Shown here: in pieces, positions 3,850 to 32,664 of the stretch | Layout: each line of letters opens with the position of its first letter | Numbering within the stretch: the first letter of the stretch is position 1 | From: a virus | Direction: 5' to 3' (one strand) | Virus genome (UHGV): UHGV-2169520 | Length of the DNA stretch: 32,664 nucleotides | Notes under the pieces: model-generated | What the model was told of the DNA's origin: nothing | The model's database searches: none | The model's input: only the letters and a program-made list of their open reading frames with translations | Program-made: the position numbers and the translations under genes

Positions 3850-4941
3850 TTATCCGCCTGAATCTGCTATCCATTCGGGGATTTTCGCTTCCAGCTCCAG
3901 TTGTGTGGTGAAGCCGCTTTCATCTATGATGTGCTCCACCCTGGCAATAATCCAGTCCTGATTGTCCACCTCGCTTTTAAAACCTGTTACCCTGCCGTGC
4001 ATTTCGGGGTACAGGTCGGCACGACCCCGTGCCAGAGTGATGGAGAATGCCGCTGCTCCCCGCTGTAACTCCTGCCACTTTGCCGCAGCTGCACGTCGTG
4101 CGGTTTCTTCATTCTGGTAAGTCCTGCGCAGAACGTAGACGTTCCCTTCCGCGCCTTCCATGTAATCACCCTCCCGGCTGCTGCTCTTCTCCTGTTTCTG
4201 TTTCCCGGCTTCCCTGCGTCGCTTCACGTTCACTTTTTTCTTTTGCCCGAACTTCAGATCGAGCCAGTGCGCCCGGACCCCCGTATACGCATCACGGTCA
4301 GCAATGCGAAAGCGGTGACTGTCGCCGCTGCTGCGGGTAATGGCGAACGAAGGCAGGGCTCTTCCGTCCGGCCCGGTTCCGCCACCCGGCAGAATGAATA
4401 ACAGGCTGCCGTTTTTTACGGTGGCAATCGCACCCAGCATTTCAGCCATGCGGGTCAGGAAGGATATATCGCTCTCTTCGGTCTGGTCAGCGTGGTCAAT
4501 TTCGATATCCATGAGGATTTCGCTTATCTGTGTCTTCAGGCCGTAGCGGTGAGCGATGGCTGACACAACCTGTTTTACGGTCACGTCGTGCCAGGATACC
4601 TCCCGCCTCACGTTGAACTCTTCCCGAAAATCTGCGCTGCTGGCGGTGATGATCAGTTTATCTGGAGGTCCTTCCCACGCAACCTCATCAACGACGTAGG
4701 TGCCCTTGTTAACCAGTGATTCTCCTCGCCAGCCAATCATCACTCTCAGGCGTGCGCCACGTGGTGGCAACTGTAACTGCCCGTCCGTATCGTCAAGGGT
4801 GAGGGTGACGCGGTCTGCCTCAAAGGCCCGGTTATCCGTCAGGGTCAGCGTCATGAGTCGCTCTGTGAGGTTTGCCAGTGTGTTGTTGTTGATGGTGATG
4901 TCGATATCCGGTGACGGAACGGTAACTGACAGCTCTTTCAT
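3850..4941 (-). CDS. D: Tail protein D
   Basis: P2 gpD-like over full length; start set at ATG 4941 (SD AGGAGAG) rather than the ORF-track start 4977, which lacks an SD. Confidence 0.85.
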   Translation of the reverse strand: MKELSVTVPSPDIDITINNNTLANLTERLMTLTLTDNRAFEADRVTLTLDDTDGQLQLPPRGARLRVMIGWRGESLVNKGTYVVDEVAWEGPPDKLIITASSADFREEFNVRREVSWHDVTVKQVVSAIAHRYGLKTQISEILMDIEIDHADQTEESDISFLTRMAEMLGAIATVKNGSLLFILPGGGTGPDGRALPSFAITRSSGDSHRFRIADRDAYTGVRAHWLDLKFGQKKKVNVKRRREAGKQKQEKSSSREGDYMEGAEGNVYVLRRTYQNEETARRAAAAKWQELQRGAAAFSITLARGRADLYPEMHGRVTGFKSEVDNQDWIIARVEHIIDESGFTTQLELEAKIPEWIADSGG

Positions 4942-26592: not shown

Positions 26593-26994
26593 CTATTTAT
26601 AGCCTTGCCCCTTACTGGCCAGCGCCCTGATGGCAGGGCGTGCCAACACCATATTTTGGCAATGATGAATTGCCCGGCAAAATTCATCTCTACCCATTGG
26701 ATGCTCAACTGGCAATGTAAAATACAGGTTCCATGCATCGCCTAAAAGTTGGGCTATCTTTTGTTCTTCAGATGTCAGCAAGCGGTACTCCCCATCCTTG
26801 ATGTAGTCACTTGTGCCATCGACCTGCTGTTCTGCAATGTGGAAAGCACCTATTGGTTTTGCTTCCAGCGATGCCAAAGCAATCCGTGCCAGTTTTTCCG
26901 CTTCTTCGGCTGGCAGTACAACGTTGCTACCAGGTCCGTATGTTTCGCGCCACTGCCTGATTGTCAGTAGTCGCTCTTTGGTTATAGTGGTCAT
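26593..26994 (-). CDS. Hypothetical cargo protein (133 aa)
   Basis: SD GAGGA 7 nt before ATG; ATGA overlap with upstream gene stop. Confidence 0.65.
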   Translation of the reverse strand: MTTITKERLLTIRQWRETYGPGSNVVLPAEEAEKLARIALASLEAKPIGAFHIAEQQVDGTSDYIKDGEYRLLTSEEQKIAQLLGDAWNLYFTLPVEHPMGRDEFCRAIHHCQNMVLARPAIRALASKGQGYK

Positions 26995-27200
26995 TTGTTA
27001 ATCCTCAAAACTTTATGCCCGGGCGCAAAAGCACGAGTTTTGTCTTTGCTTATTCGCCAGCCATCCTTACGCGCCTCTTTTGCACAGCCAGTCCATGACG
27101 TACCGATATATTCACCGAAGTCTGGCGTTTGATATTTACCATTTGTACACTGGCGACAATCACAATAGAGATGCATGGTGTAACTTGCGGCAATAGCCAT
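26991..27200 (-). CDS. Hypothetical Cys-cluster protein (69 aa), possible metal-binding
   Basis: SD AGGAGA 5 nt before ATG; ..HLYCDCRQC.. and ..TGCAKE.. Confidence 0.6.
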   Translation of the reverse strand: MAIAASYTMHLYCDCRQCTNGKYQTPDFGEYIGTSWTGCAKEARKDGWRISKDKTRAFAPGHKVLRINK

Positions 27201-27201
27201 A

Positions 27202-27516
27202 TCAGTCTCCTTTGATGCCAGTGTTTACAACCTGACAAGCCTCTTTGAGCACCCAGTCAACAGCGTCTTGCCATGCTCCGGTTTCGACTGGCGGATTCTC
27301 ACGCTTTACCAGTTCATAGAAACGTACTGCTCTAACCAGTCCATCTGACGGTTTTGCCTGTAGTGCAGCCTGAGCTATGCGGTATACCTGGAGCATACAG
27401 GCGTCGTTGATATCCATTCCGAATGGAATATCTGATGACTGAGATTCCACATCTTCCAGCCTGGCAATTTCTTTACGTAAGAAGCCTTTCAGTTCCTGCT
27501 TCTGTTTCCTGTTCAT
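27202..27516 (-). CDS. Hypothetical cargo protein (104 aa)
   Basis: ATG 27516 with SD AAGGA at 7 nt; the ORF-track start is a TTG five codons upstream. Confidence 0.6.
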   Translation of the reverse strand: MNRKQKQELKGFLRKEIARLEDVESQSSDIPFGMDINDACMLQVYRIAQAALQAKPSDGLVRAVRFYELVKRENPPVETGAWQDAVDWVLKEACQVVNTGIKGD

Positions 27517-27527
27517 ATATTTTTCCT

Positions 27528-27722
27528 TCAAAGTTCGGTTCGCTGACAGGGTTTCTCTTTACGGCAGACAATGACGCTGCCTTTGCTCGAGTCGGTGATT
27601 GTTACCGTGCCGTCATCACACTGGACAATGACAACGGTGTTGCTCTTTTTCGCTACGCAGTTCGGCGTGGCTGATTGTGCGAATGGCGCGAAAAACAGCA
27701 GAAAAAGTAATATTCTGCTCAC
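27528..27722 (-). CDS. Small secreted 4-Cys protein (64 aa; predicted signal peptide)
   Basis: GTG start 27722 with SD GGGAGG at 8 nt; VSRILLFLLFFAPFAQS-ATPNC.. signal-like leader; Cys-containing mature part of ~47 aa. Confidence 0.55.
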   Translation of the reverse strand: MSRILLFLLFFAPFAQSATPNCVAKKSNTVVIVQCDDGTVTITDSSKGSVIVCRKEKPCQRTEL

Positions 27723-28150
27723 TGTTGTTTCCTCCCGTTCTGTGCTGGTCTGGCGAATGAATTGCGTTGTGGTGAAAAGACCATTCGCGCCAGCGCGGCC
27801 TTGTGATTGACTGTGTTCAGTGTTCTGGCCAGTCCGCCGTTGTGCCTGCGTGTCCGCTCTTCGTGATATCTCTGCATGATTTTCCCGGCAGGCGTGCACG
27901 GCTCCGGTTCCTCCGGCGAACGGCGCGGACGAATGACGACAGTCCAGCTATGGCTCTCGCTGCCCGGCCGCCTGTTGAGTATGTCGGCGATGGTGGTCTC
28001 CGTGGTGCGATCGGGGCTGACTATCGTGATTTCCAGCTCGTCGCCCGGTTGTGGCCTTGTGGCAGGCCTGAACAGTGTCAGCACCGGCATACGCTGGCGC
28101 ATGATGGCCTCAAACTGTGGGCGCTGCATGGTGCAGCAAAATCGCGTCAT
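27719..28150 (-). CDS. Hypothetical basic cargo protein (143 aa), coupled to gene A
   Basis: ATGA overlap with A stop (28147-28150); SD GGAGG; Arg-rich C-terminus. Confidence 0.6.
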   Translation of the reverse strand: MTRFCCTMQRPQFEAIMRQRMPVLTLFRPATRPQPGDELEITIVSPDRTTETTIADILNRRPGSESHSWTVVIRPRRSPEEPEPCTPAGKIMQRYHEERTRRHNGGLARTLNTVNHKAALARMVFSPQRNSFARPAQNGRKQQ

Positions 28151-30662: not shown

Positions 30663-31076
30663 TTACTCCCCTGCTGTTGCCTTCTCAAATGCAGCCCGGT
30701 ACAGCACAAGAAGGCGCTGGTATTCAGCGATAAAGTCTTCTGCTGTTTTAATCCCTTTCACGACCACGCTGTGGGTGGTCATTTCCAGAACGAGCACCAT
30801 TTCTGACGATGACCAGCTGATAACGCTGCTGTCGCACCCGTTGATGTGGAACAGGCCCAGCACCATGCTGTGGTTCTGGTCTCTGACATCCACGCGGTAA
30901 CGGTCATCAACGGTGAAGGAAAAATTCCCGTATGTGGTGGCGCTGCTGGCGGCCTGTTTACAGGCGCGGCGGTAATAGTCATGCAGGTCATTGAGACGGG
31001 AAGCGAGGCGTGGATCCACCGCCCACATCCAGTTAAAAAAATCCTGAATATCTGAAAGTCCCTTAACGCTCTTCAT
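30663..31076 (-). CDS. Hypothetical early-operon protein (137 aa)
   Basis: SD GGAGG 5 nt before ATG; stop 5 nt before A start. Confidence 0.6.
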   Translation of the reverse strand: MKSVKGLSDIQDFFNWMWAVDPRLASRLNDLHDYYRRACKQAASSATTYGNFSFTVDDRYRVDVRDQNHSMVLGLFHINGCDSSVISWSSSEMVLVLEMTTHSVVVKGIKTAEDFIAEYQRLLVLYRAAFEKATAGE

Positions 31077-31144
31077 GAGAACCTCCGGAAACGGACGTGC
31101 GGAAGCCTCCCGCGTACGGGGGCGGGATGGCTCCGGGATGTTGA

Positions 31145-31372
31145 TTAGTGGTGGTAGTGCTGGTTAATGAGGTCCTGCAGCTTGCGCAGGTCATCCGCCA
31201 GGTAGCTGAATACAGCGGCGGAATACATGTTTGACAGTGCGTGGCTGCGCTCATGCAGCATATTGATGTGCATGATATGCGCGACGCGGAATGCGCGGGA
31301 AAGTCTGCGGTTGATTTCAGTCTGGATGTGACGACGCGCAGCGTATGCGCGCTGTTGTTTGCGGTTTGCCAT
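31145..31372 (-). CDS. Hypothetical small basic early protein (75 aa)
   Basis: SD AAGAGG upstream; first gene after the control region. Confidence 0.5.
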   Translation of the reverse strand: MANRKQQRAYAARRHIQTEINRRLSRAFRVAHIMHINMLHERSHALSNMYSAAVFSYLADDLRKLQDLINQHYHH

Positions 31373-31419
31373 GGTGTTTGGCCTCTTCGTTTGTGAGTTT
31401 TTGGATACTCACCATCCAG

Positions 31420-31459
31420 AGGTTGCAATTCTGGGTGGCGAGACGTACAGGGTTGCAAC
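31420..31459. promoter_or_regulatory. Palindromic GGTTGCAA motifs upstream of the early operon (candidate operators)
   Basis: CCAGA-GGTTGCAAT-TCTGG at 31415-31433 and perfect palindrome GGTTGCAACC at 31450-31459, 30 bp apart; third GGTTGCAA at 31597-31604. Confidence 0.4.
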
Positions 31460-31553
31460 CACCGGCAAACGAAGAAACCGGCCCGACCGAAGTCGGCCCC
31501 GTACGCCCCACCATAATTCTGGTGCGAAAAAGACGTGGCGATACGGTACGCAC

Positions 31554-31573
31554 AAAAAAACCGCTGGCGCGGT
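31554..31573 (-). terminator. Intrinsic terminator, minus strand, downstream of the HTH-protein gene
   Basis: Hairpin ACCGC-TGGC-GCGGT (31560-31573) preceded on plus strand by A7. Confidence 0.55.
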
Positions 31574-31695
31574 TGTGCGCTTCGTTTGTCAGCGGGGGTT
31601 GCAATCCCGGCACCCGTTTTATGAGGTGCAGCGGAAATGTAACCTGACTGATTGCGGCATGGCAAGCGGTTTTTTTGTGTGTGCATAGTGGTTAC

Positions 31696-32250
31696 TCAGT
31701 CCGGTAGCAGTTCGCAAAGCACGGTGTCAGCGGCGGTATATCGTGCGTAAAGCCGGGCGAGGACCCATCTTTTAAGGGATATCCCGGTCGTGTCCCGGAT
31801 GTACTTTCTGATTTCGCTGAATGTCATCCCCTGTTCATCGCGCAGTTCAGTTACCAACTCCACCAGGTGATCGCTGTATCTGGCTCTGTGGTGGAGTTCC
31901 CCGTATTTCCTGAACCGGTACCCTCTTTTTCTCAGGTTCAGTCCCACCGTGGATGTCGAGCGCCCCAGTTCATTCGCGAGTTCCCGGATGGTTTTTGTGT
32001 GGCGATTCCTGATGAGCGTGTTGAGTTCTTTTGTATTCAGGGGGGGTTGTTTGGTGTGGATAACCCCCTGAGAGAGCAAAAGACGGATGCGGCTTCGTAT
32101 TGCTGGCCCGGTTCTCTGAAAGTGTTTTGTCAGTTCTGGTACGGTGTGGGAGGGGTATAAACCGACCAGTAGAGCATCTTCCTGTTGTGTCCAGGCTCTG
32201 ACATGCTTCGGTGGTACACCTGATACACCCATAGGTTTAAGTGCGGGCAT
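31696..32250 (-). CDS. Putative DNA-binding protein with three helix-turn-helix-like repeats (184 aa)
   Basis: Start at ATG 32250 (SD GGAG at 7 nt); segments TVPELTKHFQRTGPAIRSRI, TIRELANELGRSTSTVGLNL, TFSEIRKYIRDTTGISLKRW. Confidence 0.55.
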   Translation of the reverse strand: MPALKPMGVSGVPPKHVRAWTQQEDALLVGLYPSHTVPELTKHFQRTGPAIRSRIRLLLSQGVIHTKQPPLNTKELNTLIRNRHTKTIRELANELGRSTSTVGLNLRKRGYRFRKYGELHHRARYSDHLVELVTELRDEQGMTFSEIRKYIRDTTGISLKRWVLARLYARYTAADTVLCELLPD

Positions 32251-32349
32251 AGTTGTTCTCCGTTGTTCTGTTTTGTGTCGGGGTAATGGTCCGGTTTTTT
32301 CGCCTTCAACCGGAAAAGAAGGGCGTGTTAGCATTGATGAATCCGCCGT

Positions 32350-32664
32350 TCAGTGGATCTGGCGGACACTTTGTTCAACACGCCCGGGGGTAAAGATGTC
32401 TGGCTGCAAAAATTCCACGAGCCAGGTTACCCTGCACTCTGCGCTGATTAGGGGCAGAGCGATGACGATGAGGGATAAAACACCATGCAAAACAACCAAC
32501 GTAAAAAATCGAGAGAACGGGATGAGGTCATGTTCCGTCTCTGGTACAGCTACTGGCTGGAGCGCATCGCGGCGGTGTTCAATCGTCGCCTTGATGCGAT
32601 CATCAACATTTTGATCCTTGCGGCGGGTGCGTTCATCGTAGCCGGCTGGCATTTCGGCTGGGTG
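32350..32664. other. Coding region of unresolved strand at the right edge
   Basis: Minus-strand ORF 32350-32652 (no SD visible, may start beyond window) overlaps a plus-strand frame from ATG 32485 (SD GAGGG) running off the window; both encode a hydrophobic segment. Confidence 0.3.

What the first reader, a model, noticed from the sequence alone, without database searches (positions are those of the whole stretch)
31696..32250. Protein with three helix-turn-helix-like repeats upstream of the early operon
Three segments with HTH-like character recur at ~45-residue intervals. The gene has a good RBS, its own terminator, and the same orientation as the early operon. It could be a regulator or a replication or partition accessory protein; I cannot place it in a known P2 gene.
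Basis: seen in the sequence. Interest (0 to 1): 0.4.

Follow-up and report, generated by a model that had tools for sequence, protein, structure and literature searches.

The report
Three-HTH accessory DNA-binding phage protein
The gene is real and encodes a small, very basic protein made of three helix-turn-helix modules, an optional DNA-binding gene of unknown target that P2-like and Mu-like prophages of E. coli and Salmonella carry among their early genes; it is ordinary rather than surprising.

Summary
The minus-strand ORF 32250->31696 is a real 184-aa gene in a P88-like (Xuanwuvirus, P2-related) E. coli prophage. Two AlphaFold models (pLDDT 82 and 88) give three separate three-helix bundles. 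Profile comparison shows they are homologous and in register (module 1 vs 2 E=1e-13; 2 vs 3 E=1e-5). The period is 51-54 residues, not ~45.

Module 1 is Myb/SANT-like. The nearest folds are multi-HTH DNA binders (Tc3, Mos1, Pax, Cbp1). The protein has pI 10.3. The HTH helices are the most variable parts; the N-tail, second linker and C-terminus are conserved.

The RBS is good. There is no terminator of its own. The DNA after the stop codon is the promoter of an isrK sRNA, followed by a P1-type C4 antisense RNA, an epsilon-like derepression protein gene and gpA.

The gene lies inside the early region, not upstream of it. It is optional: P88 and six other related phages lack it. It also occurs without isrK/C4 in Mu-like prophages, so it is probably not their dedicated regulator.

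Best reading: a monomeric, modular, sequence-specific DNA-binding accessory regulator whose target is unknown. It belongs to an uncharacterised family of a known kind. Interest is low to moderate.

The parts
31696..32250 (-). CDS, 184 aa plus TGA stop (identical to RefSeq WP_001111137.1, annotated 'hypothetical protein' or 'DNA-binding protein')
   Evidence: ORF list. Sixteen to twenty-five full-length homologues align with the same start and end. The exact sequence is seen on 385 contigs. RefSeq annotation.
32258..32261 (-). Shine-Dalgarno GGAG, 7 nt before the ATG at 32250
   Evidence: Read directly from the sequence.
32194..32250 (-). Conserved, probably disordered N-terminal tail (res 1-19; family consensus LKPMGxPGxxPxHVRAW)
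   Evidence: Low pLDDT (50-73). Low column entropy. Conserved between P2-like and Mu-like copies.
32071..32193 (-). HTH module 1 (res 20-60), Myb/SANT-like; W20, D25, R46 and R54 invariant or nearly so
   Evidence: Helices 22-34, 37-44 and 48-60. The family profile matches c-Myb repeats at E=9e-8. Relatives carry PF00249 hits.
31921..32040 (-). HTH module 2 (res 71-110)
   Evidence: Helices 73-82, 88-95 and 99-108. hhalign against module 1 gives E=1.1e-13. The profile matches Cbp1 (2lvs) at 1.7e-5 and the Mos1 HTH at 2.4e-4.
31879..31920 (-). Basic linker 2 (res 111-124; 5 K/R within it, 6 in the 109-126 segment scored), with family-invariant K115 and G117
   Evidence: Invariant columns. Charge and entropy by segment.
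31741..31878 (-). HTH module 3 (res 125-170). It has the best-conserved first helix (D127...LRD138) and the most variable third helix. The same linker-plus-module-3 unit stands alone as a 108-aa protein in Vibrio phages.
   Evidence: Helices 127-138, 144-155 and 161-169. hhalign against module 2 gives E=1e-5. Entropy by segment. Vibrio phage matches.
31699..31740 (-). Conserved C-terminal helix and tail (res 171-184; family consensus TAxDxxxRELLP)
   Evidence: Helix 173-181. Conservation.
31636..31665 (-). Context, not part of the gene: the isrK promoter (TTGCCA-18-TACATT), starting 31 nt after the stop codon
   Evidence: Promoter scan. Both hexamers are conserved in the 14 loci where isrK follows directly; the spacer differs in L022 and L023. 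The promoter ends 7 nt before the isrK 5' end.
31431..31629 (-). Context: isrK sRNA (31629->31554) and C4 antisense RNA (31518->31431)
   Evidence: Rfam scores of 61.9 and 79.3 bits, both above the gathering thresholds. The same pair is found in 11 related loci.
32485..32664 (+). Context: the 5' part of a reversed 160-aa gene for a probable membrane protein (two hydrophobic stretches; phrog_6315). It is divergent from the HTH gene and runs off the window.
   Evidence: RefSeq annotation. Codon-position mismatches of 41/24/81 support the + frame. The + strand protein is 58/40/51% identical across three phages, against 35/24/32% for the minus-strand translation. PHROG match.

Best explanation
The gene encodes a 184-aa, strongly basic (pI 10.3) protein built as beads on a string. 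It has a short conserved N-terminal tail, three independently folded tri-helical HTH modules (the first Myb/SANT-like) joined by basic linkers, and a conserved C-terminal helix.

The most likely mechanism, which is inferred and not shown, is this. The protein binds double-stranded DNA as a monomer. The third helix of each module lies in successive major grooves, and the tail and linkers track the minor groove, as in Myb R2R3, the Tc3/Mos1/Pax bipartite domains and Cbp1. It would thereby read an extended asymmetric site of roughly 25-35 bp and act as a repressor, roadblock or activator.

It lies within the early (lytic) region of a P88-like P2-family prophage and is presumably transcribed with the early (lytic) genes. 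It is an optional cargo gene, not part of the phage core. Its alleles have diverged mainly in the HTH helices, which suggests different alleles recognise different sites. Its target is most likely outside the conserved phage backbone, for example a host gene or a competing mobile element. It is not a dedicated regulator of the adjacent isrK/C4 module.

Approximate confidence by step: folded three-HTH protein 0.95; binds nucleic acid 0.8; optional accessory gene 0.9; transcription regulator with a non-core target 0.4.
For: FOLD. Two AF2 models agree on three 3-helix bundles. pLDDT exceeds 90 inside the modules. pTM of 0.53 means the relative orientation of the modules is not fixed. The modules are homologous and in register.

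DNA-BINDING KIND. The family profile hits c-Myb (E=9e-8), Cbp1 (1.7e-5) and the Mos1 HTH (2.4e-4) among PDB sequences. The top Foldseek PDB hits for both models are multi-HTH DNA binders: the Tc3 bipartite domain (probability 0.97-0.98), Pax5/6, Mos1, Cbp1, Reb1, SETMAR and CENP-B. BFVD hits at E 2e-5 to 8e-4 are phage multi-HTH proteins and the DNA-binding parts of homing endonucleases. Pfam gives only HTH families, all below threshold. PHROG 323, labelled 'transcriptional regulator', scores 2e-27. Net charge is +14, and the second linker segment (res 109-126) holds 6 K/R.

DIVERSIFYING RECOGNITION SURFACE. Column entropy is highest in helices 2 and 3 of each module (1.2-1.8 bits). It is lowest in the first helix of module 3, the N-tail, linker 2 and the C-terminal helix (0.45-0.82 bits).

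OPTIONAL GENE. P88 and six other related phages (nine records in all) share the flanking isrK-C4-derepression DNA at 88-90% identity but lack the gene. Only Citrobacter phage Shae_phiSM has it.

SLOT. In P2-like prophages it is the last or second-last accessory gene before the isrK/C4-derepression-gpA block. In Mu-like prophages it lies between the gam region and gemA/mor.

NOT TIED TO isrK/C4. Each occurs without the other. The isrK promoter sequence does not co-vary with HTH alleles that are only about 50% identical.
Against: No binding site, target or phenotype is known for any member of the family. No experimental paper was found. All Foldseek PDB E-values are 0.05 or higher, because the modules are not rigidly arranged, so the fold assignment rests on the ranking and on sequence profiles. 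SANT-type and HTH-repeat domains can bind proteins instead of DNA; Ltp of phage TP-J34 appears among the weak hits. The strongly conserved tails point to a conserved partner that the DNA-binding model does not explain. Early-operon co-transcription is inferred from position only. In this prophage a reversed gene and 234 nt of non-coding DNA lie directly upstream, and no sigma-70 promoter was found there.
Confidence: 0.5

Rival explanations
1. It is a local regulator of its neighbours. It would bind the isrK promoter just past its stop codon, or the conserved 234-nt region it shares with the divergent gene for a probable membrane protein. It would set the level of the isrK/C4 immunity RNAs or of that reversed cargo gene.
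For: In the 14 Xuanwuvirus-type loci and one Salmonella P2-like locus (L030) where isrK follows directly, the isrK promoter begins 30-60 nt after its stop codon. The divergent pairing with the membrane-protein gene recurs in a second lineage. There the HTH protein is only 47% identical and the membrane protein 62% identical, yet the intergenic DNA is 83% identical. All 31 E. coli genomes that have the membrane-protein gene match a query that includes this intergenic region.
Against: P88 and six other related phages have isrK/C4 and its promoter but not the gene. Mu-like prophages have the gene but no isrK/C4. The isrK promoter is unchanged between alleles 50% apart. Most alleles have no membrane-protein gene upstream. 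Yersinia phage vB_YenM_42.18 has the membrane-protein gene without an HTH gene beside it. No repeat or palindrome in the intergenic region stands out from chance.
Confidence: 0.15
2. It is an orphan DNA-binding module of homing-endonuclease origin. It would be either a decayed mobile endonuclease gene that lost its nuclease, or a site-occupying protein that protects its phage from a related endonuclease.
For: PHROGs annotated as HNH endonuclease share the HTH array (phrog_1891 at 1e-5, phrog_59 at 0.018). BFVD structural hits include endonucleases of BcepSauron, Acinetobacter phage ME3 and others. The gene shows presence/absence polymorphism between conserved flanks.
Against: There is no nuclease domain or motif anywhere in the 184 aa. 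The full-length architecture, including both tails, is conserved at 31-50% identity across E. coli and Salmonella, and across P2-like and Mu-like phages. That pattern indicates purifying selection on a stand-alone protein, not decay. No full-length relative with a nuclease fused was found among the best 150 representatives.
Confidence: 0.1
3. It binds a protein rather than DNA. The HTH or SANT-like repeats and the conserved tails would dock onto a host or rival-phage protein, for host takeover, exclusion or anti-defence.
For: The N-terminal tail and the C-terminal ELLP tail are the most conserved parts and are predicted to be partly disordered. Ltp, a phage exclusion protein made of HTH repeats, is among the weak structural hits. 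Salmonella copies sit beside typical early accessory genes: Dam methylase, DUF4406 and PAPS-reductase-like.
Against: A net charge of +14 and basic linkers fit nucleic acid better. There is no signal peptide or lipobox like that of Ltp (sequence). There is no match to any PADLOC defence model. Variability concentrated in the third helices is the pattern expected for changing DNA specificity.
Confidence: 0.12
4. It is a replication or partition accessory protein: an origin- or centromere-binding factor that helps gpA or a ParM-type partition system.
For: It lies just upstream of the replication block. Some relatives carry ParM/StbA and Plasmid_stab_B genes after gpA.
Against: The gene is absent from P88 and six other related phages that have the same gpA block. 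It is present in transposing Mu-like prophages. It has no similarity to ParB, ParR or replication-initiator families. This window has no ParM-like ORF after gpA.
Confidence: 0.05

Closest known systems
Myb/SANT repeats (c-Myb R2R3; Pfam PF00249 and PF13921)
   Same: Tandem tri-helical HTH modules of about 50 residues. Module 1 has the W-x2-E-D ... R-T ... R signature. The family profile matches c-Myb repeats at E=9e-8. Salmonella relatives are annotated SANT/Myb and carry PF00249 hits.
   Different: This protein has no PF00249 match at E<=1. Only one of the three spaced tryptophans is kept. Modules 2 and 3 are generic HTH. It is a phage protein with extra conserved tails.
Bipartite HTH DNA-binding domains of Tc3/Mos1 (IS630-Tc1-mariner) transposases and Pax paired domains
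   Same: These are the top-ranked folds for both models (Tc3 1u78 at probability 0.97-0.98; Mos1; Pax5/6). There are weak profile hits to the Mos1 HTH (2.4e-4) and to the IS630 N-terminus (0.0024). The design of separate HTH modules joined by a basic linker is the same.
   Different: It has three modules, not two. There is no DDE catalytic domain. E-values are not significant for the whole chain.
Cbp1, the CRISPR-repeat-binding protein of Sulfolobus (PDB 2lvs)
   Same: A small stand-alone protein made only of imperfect HTH repeats on flexible linkers. The profile match is E=1.7e-5 over about 80 residues. Foldseek probability is 0.85-0.92.
   Different: Cbp1 is an archaeal host protein with no phage context, and its target is known. 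Sequence identity is about 22%.
PHROG 323 ('transcriptional regulator, D5-like') and the unannotated multi-HTH proteins of phages (Goslar, Pantoea AAM22, Vibrio phages)
   Same: This is the best library match (2e-27, residues 33-179 of the 212-aa reading). BFVD hits fall at 2e-5 to 8e-4. Partial homologues carry modules 1+2 only, or linker plus module 3 only.
   Different: The PHROG profile is 319 positions long, and only positions 82-230 are matched. The label is an annotation, not a tested function. None of these proteins has been characterised.
GcrA N-terminal DNA-binding domain (PF07750)
   Same: Long multi-repeat relatives of module 1 hit the first ~50 positions of PF07750, so the module type is shared.
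   Different: This protein has no PF07750 match. It lacks the sigma-70-binding C-terminal half of GcrA.

Membership tests
Myb/SANT DNA-binding domain (PF00249) | Score at or above the Pfam gathering threshold (24.4 bits) | tested here: not met
   PF00249 is not listed even at E<=1 for this protein. Relatives do have precomputed PF00249 hits, some of them faint. The family profile hits c-Myb chains at 9e-8.
Myb/SANT DNA-binding domain (PF00249) | Three regularly spaced aromatic (Trp) residues forming the core of each repeat | tested here: not met
   Only W20 is present and invariant. The other two positions are aliphatic or Tyr, and modules 2 and 3 have none.
Tri-helical HTH DNA-binding fold (generic) | Three-helix bundle with helix 2, a turn, and helix 3 | tested here: met
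   Found three times in two independent AF2 models, with pLDDT 88-97 in the modules. The top structural neighbours are all HTH DNA binders.
Tri-helical HTH DNA-binding fold (generic) | Actual binding to DNA | not testable with these tools
   Needs EMSA, SELEX or ChIP.
AsnC/Lrp regulators (the name given to Salmonella relatives) | C-terminal AsnC/RAM ligand-binding domain (PF01037) after a single wHTH | tested here: not met
   No PF01037 hit. There are only sub-threshold HTH_24 and HTH_AsnC-type-like matches. The architecture is three HTH modules.
Known phage P2 early genes (cox, B, A, orf78-83, tin, old) | Sequence similarity to a P2 gene product | tested here: not met
   A tblastn against 50,697 phage records gave 8 records, none of them P2. 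Its neighbours are assigned: Derepression PF25738 and Phage_GPA.
Homing endonucleases (HNH, GIY-YIG, LAGLIDADG) | A nuclease catalytic domain | tested here: not met
   No nuclease family appears in the Pfam, NCBIfam or PHROG alignments. Only the HTH part of the HNH PHROGs is matched.
IS630/Tc1-mariner transposases | A DDE/DDD catalytic domain after the bipartite HTH | tested here: not met
   NF033545 scores 17.4 bits against a cut-off of 100, and only profile positions 12-106 are matched. The protein ends at residue 184.
ParB / partition centromere-binding proteins | A ParB-type or RHH/ParR-type domain, with a partner NTPase gene adjacent | tested here: not met
   There is no such hit above noise (RHH_1 at E=0.18). 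No ParA or ParM gene is adjacent in the window.
Known anti-phage defence systems (PADLOC-DB 2.0) | A match to any defence-system protein model | tested here: not met
   Zero families at E<=0.01.

The most novel reading that the evidence does not exclude
The family is a retargetable DNA-recognition adaptor used in conflicts between mobile elements. The invariant N- and C-terminal tails would recruit one conserved partner, either a host factor or a phage enzyme. The fast-evolving third helices of the three modules would redirect that partner to different DNA sites in rival phages, satellites (for example P4-like elements that exploit P2-type helpers) or host loci. That would explain why P2-like and Mu-like phages carry highly divergent alleles in the same optional early slot.
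Probability: 0.08. Interest if true: 0.55.

Novelty: new member of a known kind. Interest (0 to 1): 0.2.

Why it matters
The result removes a false lead. The gene is not an unrecognised core regulator, replication factor or partition factor of a P2-type phage. It is optional early-region cargo from a widespread, uncharacterised family of poly-HTH proteins. About 4,000 representative proteins share the module, many of them as arrays of 3-12 copies.

The pattern of variable recognition helices on a conserved scaffold makes the family a tractable case for studying how small modular DNA binders change specificity. Knowing its target would show what P2-like and Mu-like phages gain from it.

The surrounding corrections matter for annotating this phage group. 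The 'non-coding' stretch downstream is a P1-type isrK/C4 antisense module in front of an epsilon-like derepression protein and gpA. 'Ash-like' ORF calls over that stretch are probably artefacts.

Tried and rejected
(1) The 212-aa reading from the ATG at 32334 was rejected. All homologues start at the Met of 32250, which has the GGAG.

(2) The 'own terminator' was rejected. No minus-strand terminator precedes the one belonging to isrK.

(3) A single-sequence repeat test was not significant. A shallow-alignment hhalign was only weak. The deeper alignment was needed.

(4) The genome-contig scan with the family alignment found no relative. That collection holds one genome per species, so E. coli prophage cargo is easily missed.

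(6) PADLOC gave no defence-system match for the gene or its neighbours.

(7) Pfam scans of 20 long multi-repeat relatives looked for informative fusions. They found only more HTH, apart from one SNF2-type helicase and one Ros/MucR fusion.

(8) The idea of an obligatory regulator-effector pair with the divergent membrane-protein gene was examined and weakened. Each gene occurs without the other.

(9) The idea of a dedicated isrK/C4 regulator was examined and weakened by double dissociation and by the lack of co-variation.

(10) Repeat and palindrome searches around the gene found nothing beyond chance-level matches.

(11) Literature searches (Xuanwuvirus; isrK/C4/P2-like; Myb-like prophage; DUF4406) found no study of this protein.

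Full report
WHAT IS THERE.
The window is most of a P88-like (genus Xuanwuvirus, Peduoviridae) P2-family prophage of E. coli. The DNA around the finding matches P88 and eight other related records at 88-90% identity. An identical stretch in E. coli chromosomes is flanked by int, C, cox and dmsA.

The finding's coordinates are exactly a minus-strand ORF, 32250->31696, of 184 codons plus TGA. A GGAG lies 7 nt before the ATG. The reading frame is open up to an ATG at 32334 (212 aa). However, every homologue of 177-187 aa starts at the Met of 32250. The exact protein occurs on 385 contigs. It is named 'DNA-binding protein' or 'hypothetical protein' (WP_001111137.1).

THE REPEAT OBSERVATION.
Two AlphaFold2 models made from different alignments agree. 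One used 16 close alleles (pLDDT 82.3) and one used 25 more diverse members (pLDDT 87.7). Both show three separate three-helix bundles: residues 22-60, 73-108 and 127-169. Both also show a C-terminal helix (173-181) and a low-confidence N-terminal tail. A pTM of 0.53 with module pLDDT of 88-97 means the modules are confident but their mutual arrangement is not, that is, beads on a string.

With the single sequence, the similarity between segments is at chance level. With profiles it is not. Module 1 vs 2 gives hhalign probability 98% and E=1.1e-13 over 41 columns. Module 2 vs 3 gives probability 82% and E=1e-5. Module 1 vs 3 gives E=0.002. All three alignments are in the same HTH register (a weaker version appears).

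The observation of three HTH-like repeats is therefore confirmed.

WHAT KIND OF PROTEIN.
Pfam and NCBIfam give only sub-threshold HTH matches. PHROG 323 ('transcriptional regulator, D5-like') matches at 2e-27. HNH-endonuclease PHROGs match only through their HTH part.

A profile of the family hits c-Myb repeats among PDB sequences (E=9e-8, module 1). It also hits the three-HTH CRISPR-repeat-binding protein Cbp1 (1.7e-5) and the Mos1 transposase HTH (2.4e-4, module 2).

Foldseek against the PDB ranks multi-HTH DNA binders first for both models. These are the Tc3 bipartite domain, Pax5/6, Mos1, Cbp1, Reb1, SETMAR and CENP-B. No E-value is below 0.05, as expected for a flexible chain. Against viral models, the best hits (2e-5 to 8e-4) are uncharacterised multi-HTH proteins of phage Goslar and the DNA-binding parts of phage endonucleases.

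An exhaustive profile search finds 4,084 representative proteins at E<=0.001. About 20 clusters are full-length ~180-aa relatives. The rest are mostly longer proteins that carry the module 3-12 times. In the 20 long ones scanned, Pfam sees Myb, GcrA-N, sigma-70 region 4 and other HTH families. It sees almost no other domain, apart from one helicase fusion and one Ros/MucR fusion.

The protein has pI 10.3 and net charge +14, and its second linker is rich in K/R.

WHERE THE FAMILY VARIES.
Column entropy was computed in 16 E. coli alleles and in 24 family-wide sequences. It is highest in helices 2 and 3 of each module, the third helix of module 3 being the most variable. It is lowest in the first helix of module 3, the N-terminal tail (LKPMGxPGxxPxHV+xW), the second linker (invariant K115 and G117, with D127 invariant or nearly so just after it) and the C-terminal TAxD...ELLP. 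This is the pattern expected if alleles keep a common scaffold, and perhaps a common partner, but read different DNA sequences.

(i) The gene is not upstream of the early operon. In the complete prophage, int, C and cox and about eight further genes (seven on the early strand, one reversed) lie beyond the window's end. The gene sits between them and the replication block.

(ii) The gene has no terminator of its own. The sequence after its stop codon is a sigma-70-like promoter, TTGCCA-18-TACATT (31665->31636). In the 14 loci where isrK follows directly, the hexamers are conserved, and in two of those loci the spacer differs. The promoter ends 7 nt before an isrK sRNA (31629->31554, 61.9 bits). 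A C4 antisense RNA follows (31518->31431, 79.3 bits).

(iii) Directly upstream in this prophage there are 234 nt of non-coding DNA. Beyond that lies a reversed 160-aa gene for a probable membrane protein with two hydrophobic stretches (phrog_6315), starting at 32485 on the + strand. Codon-position statistics and cross-phage conservation show that the + strand is the coding one. The 100-aa minus-strand ORF 32350-32652 is therefore probably spurious.

IS IT CORE OR CARGO?
P88 and six other related phages keep the isrK-C4-derepression-gpA DNA but lack the gene. P88 has an SPFH-domain gene in that slot. Only Citrobacter phage Shae_phiSM carries an 85% identical orthologue.

Other E. coli Xuanwuvirus-type prophages carry alleles only 47-54% identical in the same slot, between flanks that are about 88-90% identical.

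Salmonella P2-like prophages carry 31-39% identical members, often right after a DUF4406 gene. In one case the order is Dam-DUF4406-HTH-PAPS-reductase-like. Mu-like prophages of E. coli and Salmonella carry members between the gam region and gemA/mor.

The family is thus an optional early-region gene of at least two unrelated temperate phage types.

TESTING THE LOCAL-REGULATOR IDEA.
isrK/C4 occur without the gene in P88. The gene occurs without isrK/C4 in Mu-like prophages. The isrK promoter does not change between alleles that are 50% apart.

The divergent pairing with the membrane-protein gene does recur in a second lineage with a well-conserved intergenic region (83% identity). However, most alleles lack that gene. 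A Yersinia P2-like phage has the membrane-protein gene without an HTH gene next to it. No significant repeat or palindrome marks an operator. A dedicated local role is therefore possible but not favoured.

MOST LIKELY MECHANISM.
Shown: a folded, basic, three-HTH protein of a conserved stand-alone family that is optional for the phage.

Inferred: monomeric binding of an extended asymmetric DNA site, by analogy with Myb R2R3, Tc3/Pax and Cbp1. Each third helix would lie in a major groove, with the basic tail and linkers in the minor groove. The protein would act as an accessory transcription regulator or roadblock during early development. Allele-specific targets would lie outside the conserved backbone.

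Rivals, with my estimates: a local regulator of isrK/C4 or of the reversed cargo gene (0.15); a protein-binding repeat protein (0.12); an orphan homing-endonuclease DNA-binding module (0.10); a replication or partition accessory (0.05).

COMPARISON AND NOVELTY.
The protein works like known multi-HTH DNA binders, but it is not a member of any curated family. PF00249 is not reached and the Trp triad is missing. It has no AsnC ligand domain, no nuclease, no DDE domain, no ParB or ParR domain, no PADLOC hit and no P2 homologue. No publication on it was found.

I rate it a new member of a known kind, with interest about 0.2. The most novel reading not excluded is a retargetable adaptor: conserved tails recruit a partner and variable helices choose the site, for use in conflicts between mobile elements. 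I give that a probability of about 0.08.

SIDE OBSERVATIONS.
The C4 loop (UCUUCGUUUG) and bulge (GGUUGCAA) are each complementary to two places. One pair lies in isrK. The other pair lies in the leader of the 75-aa PF25738 'Derepression' ORF, where the match overlaps its Shine-Dalgarno sequence. This reproduces the a1b1 / a'b' / a2b2 layout of the phage P1 immI region (my own knowledge of P1; C4 function as summarised in PMC12197685; isrK in Gifsy-1 from PMC4825925). Here the layout sits in front of an epsilon-like derepression protein and gpA of a P2-type phage.

The 205-207-aa 'ash-like' ORFs called over these RNAs are probably artefacts. These are window 31063-31686 and, in relatives, L004 6547-7164 and L030 6537-7139.

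Noticed in passing
window 31431-31665 (- strand): The 'non-coding' gap downstream of the gene holds a promoter (TTGCCA-18-TACATT), an isrK sRNA (31629->31554) and a C4 antisense RNA (31518->31431). Both RNAs score above their Rfam gathering thresholds. The same pair is present in 11 related P2-like loci, including P88.
   Followed up: yes
window 31355-31629 (- strand): The C4 loop UCUUCGUUUG and bulge GGUUGCAA are each complementary to two places. One pair lies inside isrK (UUGCAACC, CAAACGAAG). The other lies in the leader of the 75-aa PF25738 'Derepression' ORF (UUGCAACC and CAAACGAAGA), where it overlaps the Shine-Dalgarno 12 nt before the ATG at 31372. This is a P1 immI-like antisense layout controlling an epsilon-like derepression protein just ahead of gpA in a P2-type phage. 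gpA therefore lies downstream of the terminator-like sites in isrK and C4.
   Followed up: partly
window 31063-31686 (- strand); L004 6547-7164; L030 6537-7139: A 205-207-aa ORF, called 'ash family' or weak PF10554 in relatives, overlaps isrK, C4 and (in the window) the 75-aa derepression ORF. The window copy has no Pfam hit. It is probably a gene-caller artefact laid over RNA genes.
   Followed up: partly
window 32485-32664 (+ strand, runs off the end); L033 7186-7668: A reversed 160-aa gene for a probable membrane protein with two hydrophobic stretches (phrog_6315, function unknown) is inserted antisense to the early operon and divergent from the HTH gene. Codon-position mismatches (41/24/81) and conservation (58/40/51% against 35/24/32%) show the + strand is coding. 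The 100-aa minus-strand ORF 32350-32652 is thus probably spurious. The gene is found in 31 of 5,426 complete E. coli genomes.
   Followed up: yes
L035 4288-4953 (Yersinia phage vB_YenM_42.18, OM046624.1): The deposited annotation (gp008, a 221-aa hypothetical protein) is on the strand opposite to the conserved homologue of the 160-aa membrane protein (41% identity, + strand 4501-4935). The annotation is probably on the wrong strand.
   Followed up: partly
window 32251-32484 vs L034 3497-3739: The 234-nt region between the HTH gene and the reversed membrane-protein gene is 83% identical between two lineages, and about 90% identical in the half next to the HTH gene. The flanking proteins are only 47% and 62% identical. 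No sigma-70 promoter or clear operator was recognised in the region.
   Followed up: partly
L030 5699-6540, L031, L032 4722-7577, L028 4690-6549 (Salmonella prophages): In Salmonella the HTH gene repeatedly follows a DUF4406 gene, with a 4-nt overlap in the P2-like prophages. In L032 the order is Dam methylase - DUF4406 - HTH - PAPS-reductase-like. This may be a DNA-modification or anti-restriction neighbourhood. No literature on DUF4406 function was found.
   Followed up: partly
L036 1444-1770 (Vibrio phage 1.276.O) and L037 2495-2956 (Pantoea phage AAM22): Parts of the protein exist as separate phage genes. Linker 2 plus module 3 stands alone as a 108-aa protein (43-48% identity) in four Vibrio phages. 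Modules 1+2 occur in a 153-aa Pantoea phage protein. The modules are therefore shuffled as independent units.
   Followed up: no
L001 1-611, L002 1-620, L004 10448-11726 (relatives); window 26593-28150: P88, Shae_phiSM and several prophages carry a ParM/StbA-like gene after gpA, and in the prophages (L004-L007) a Plasmid_stab_B gene follows it. This window instead has four small ORFs there with no Pfam hit, so this is another variable cargo slot.
   Followed up: no
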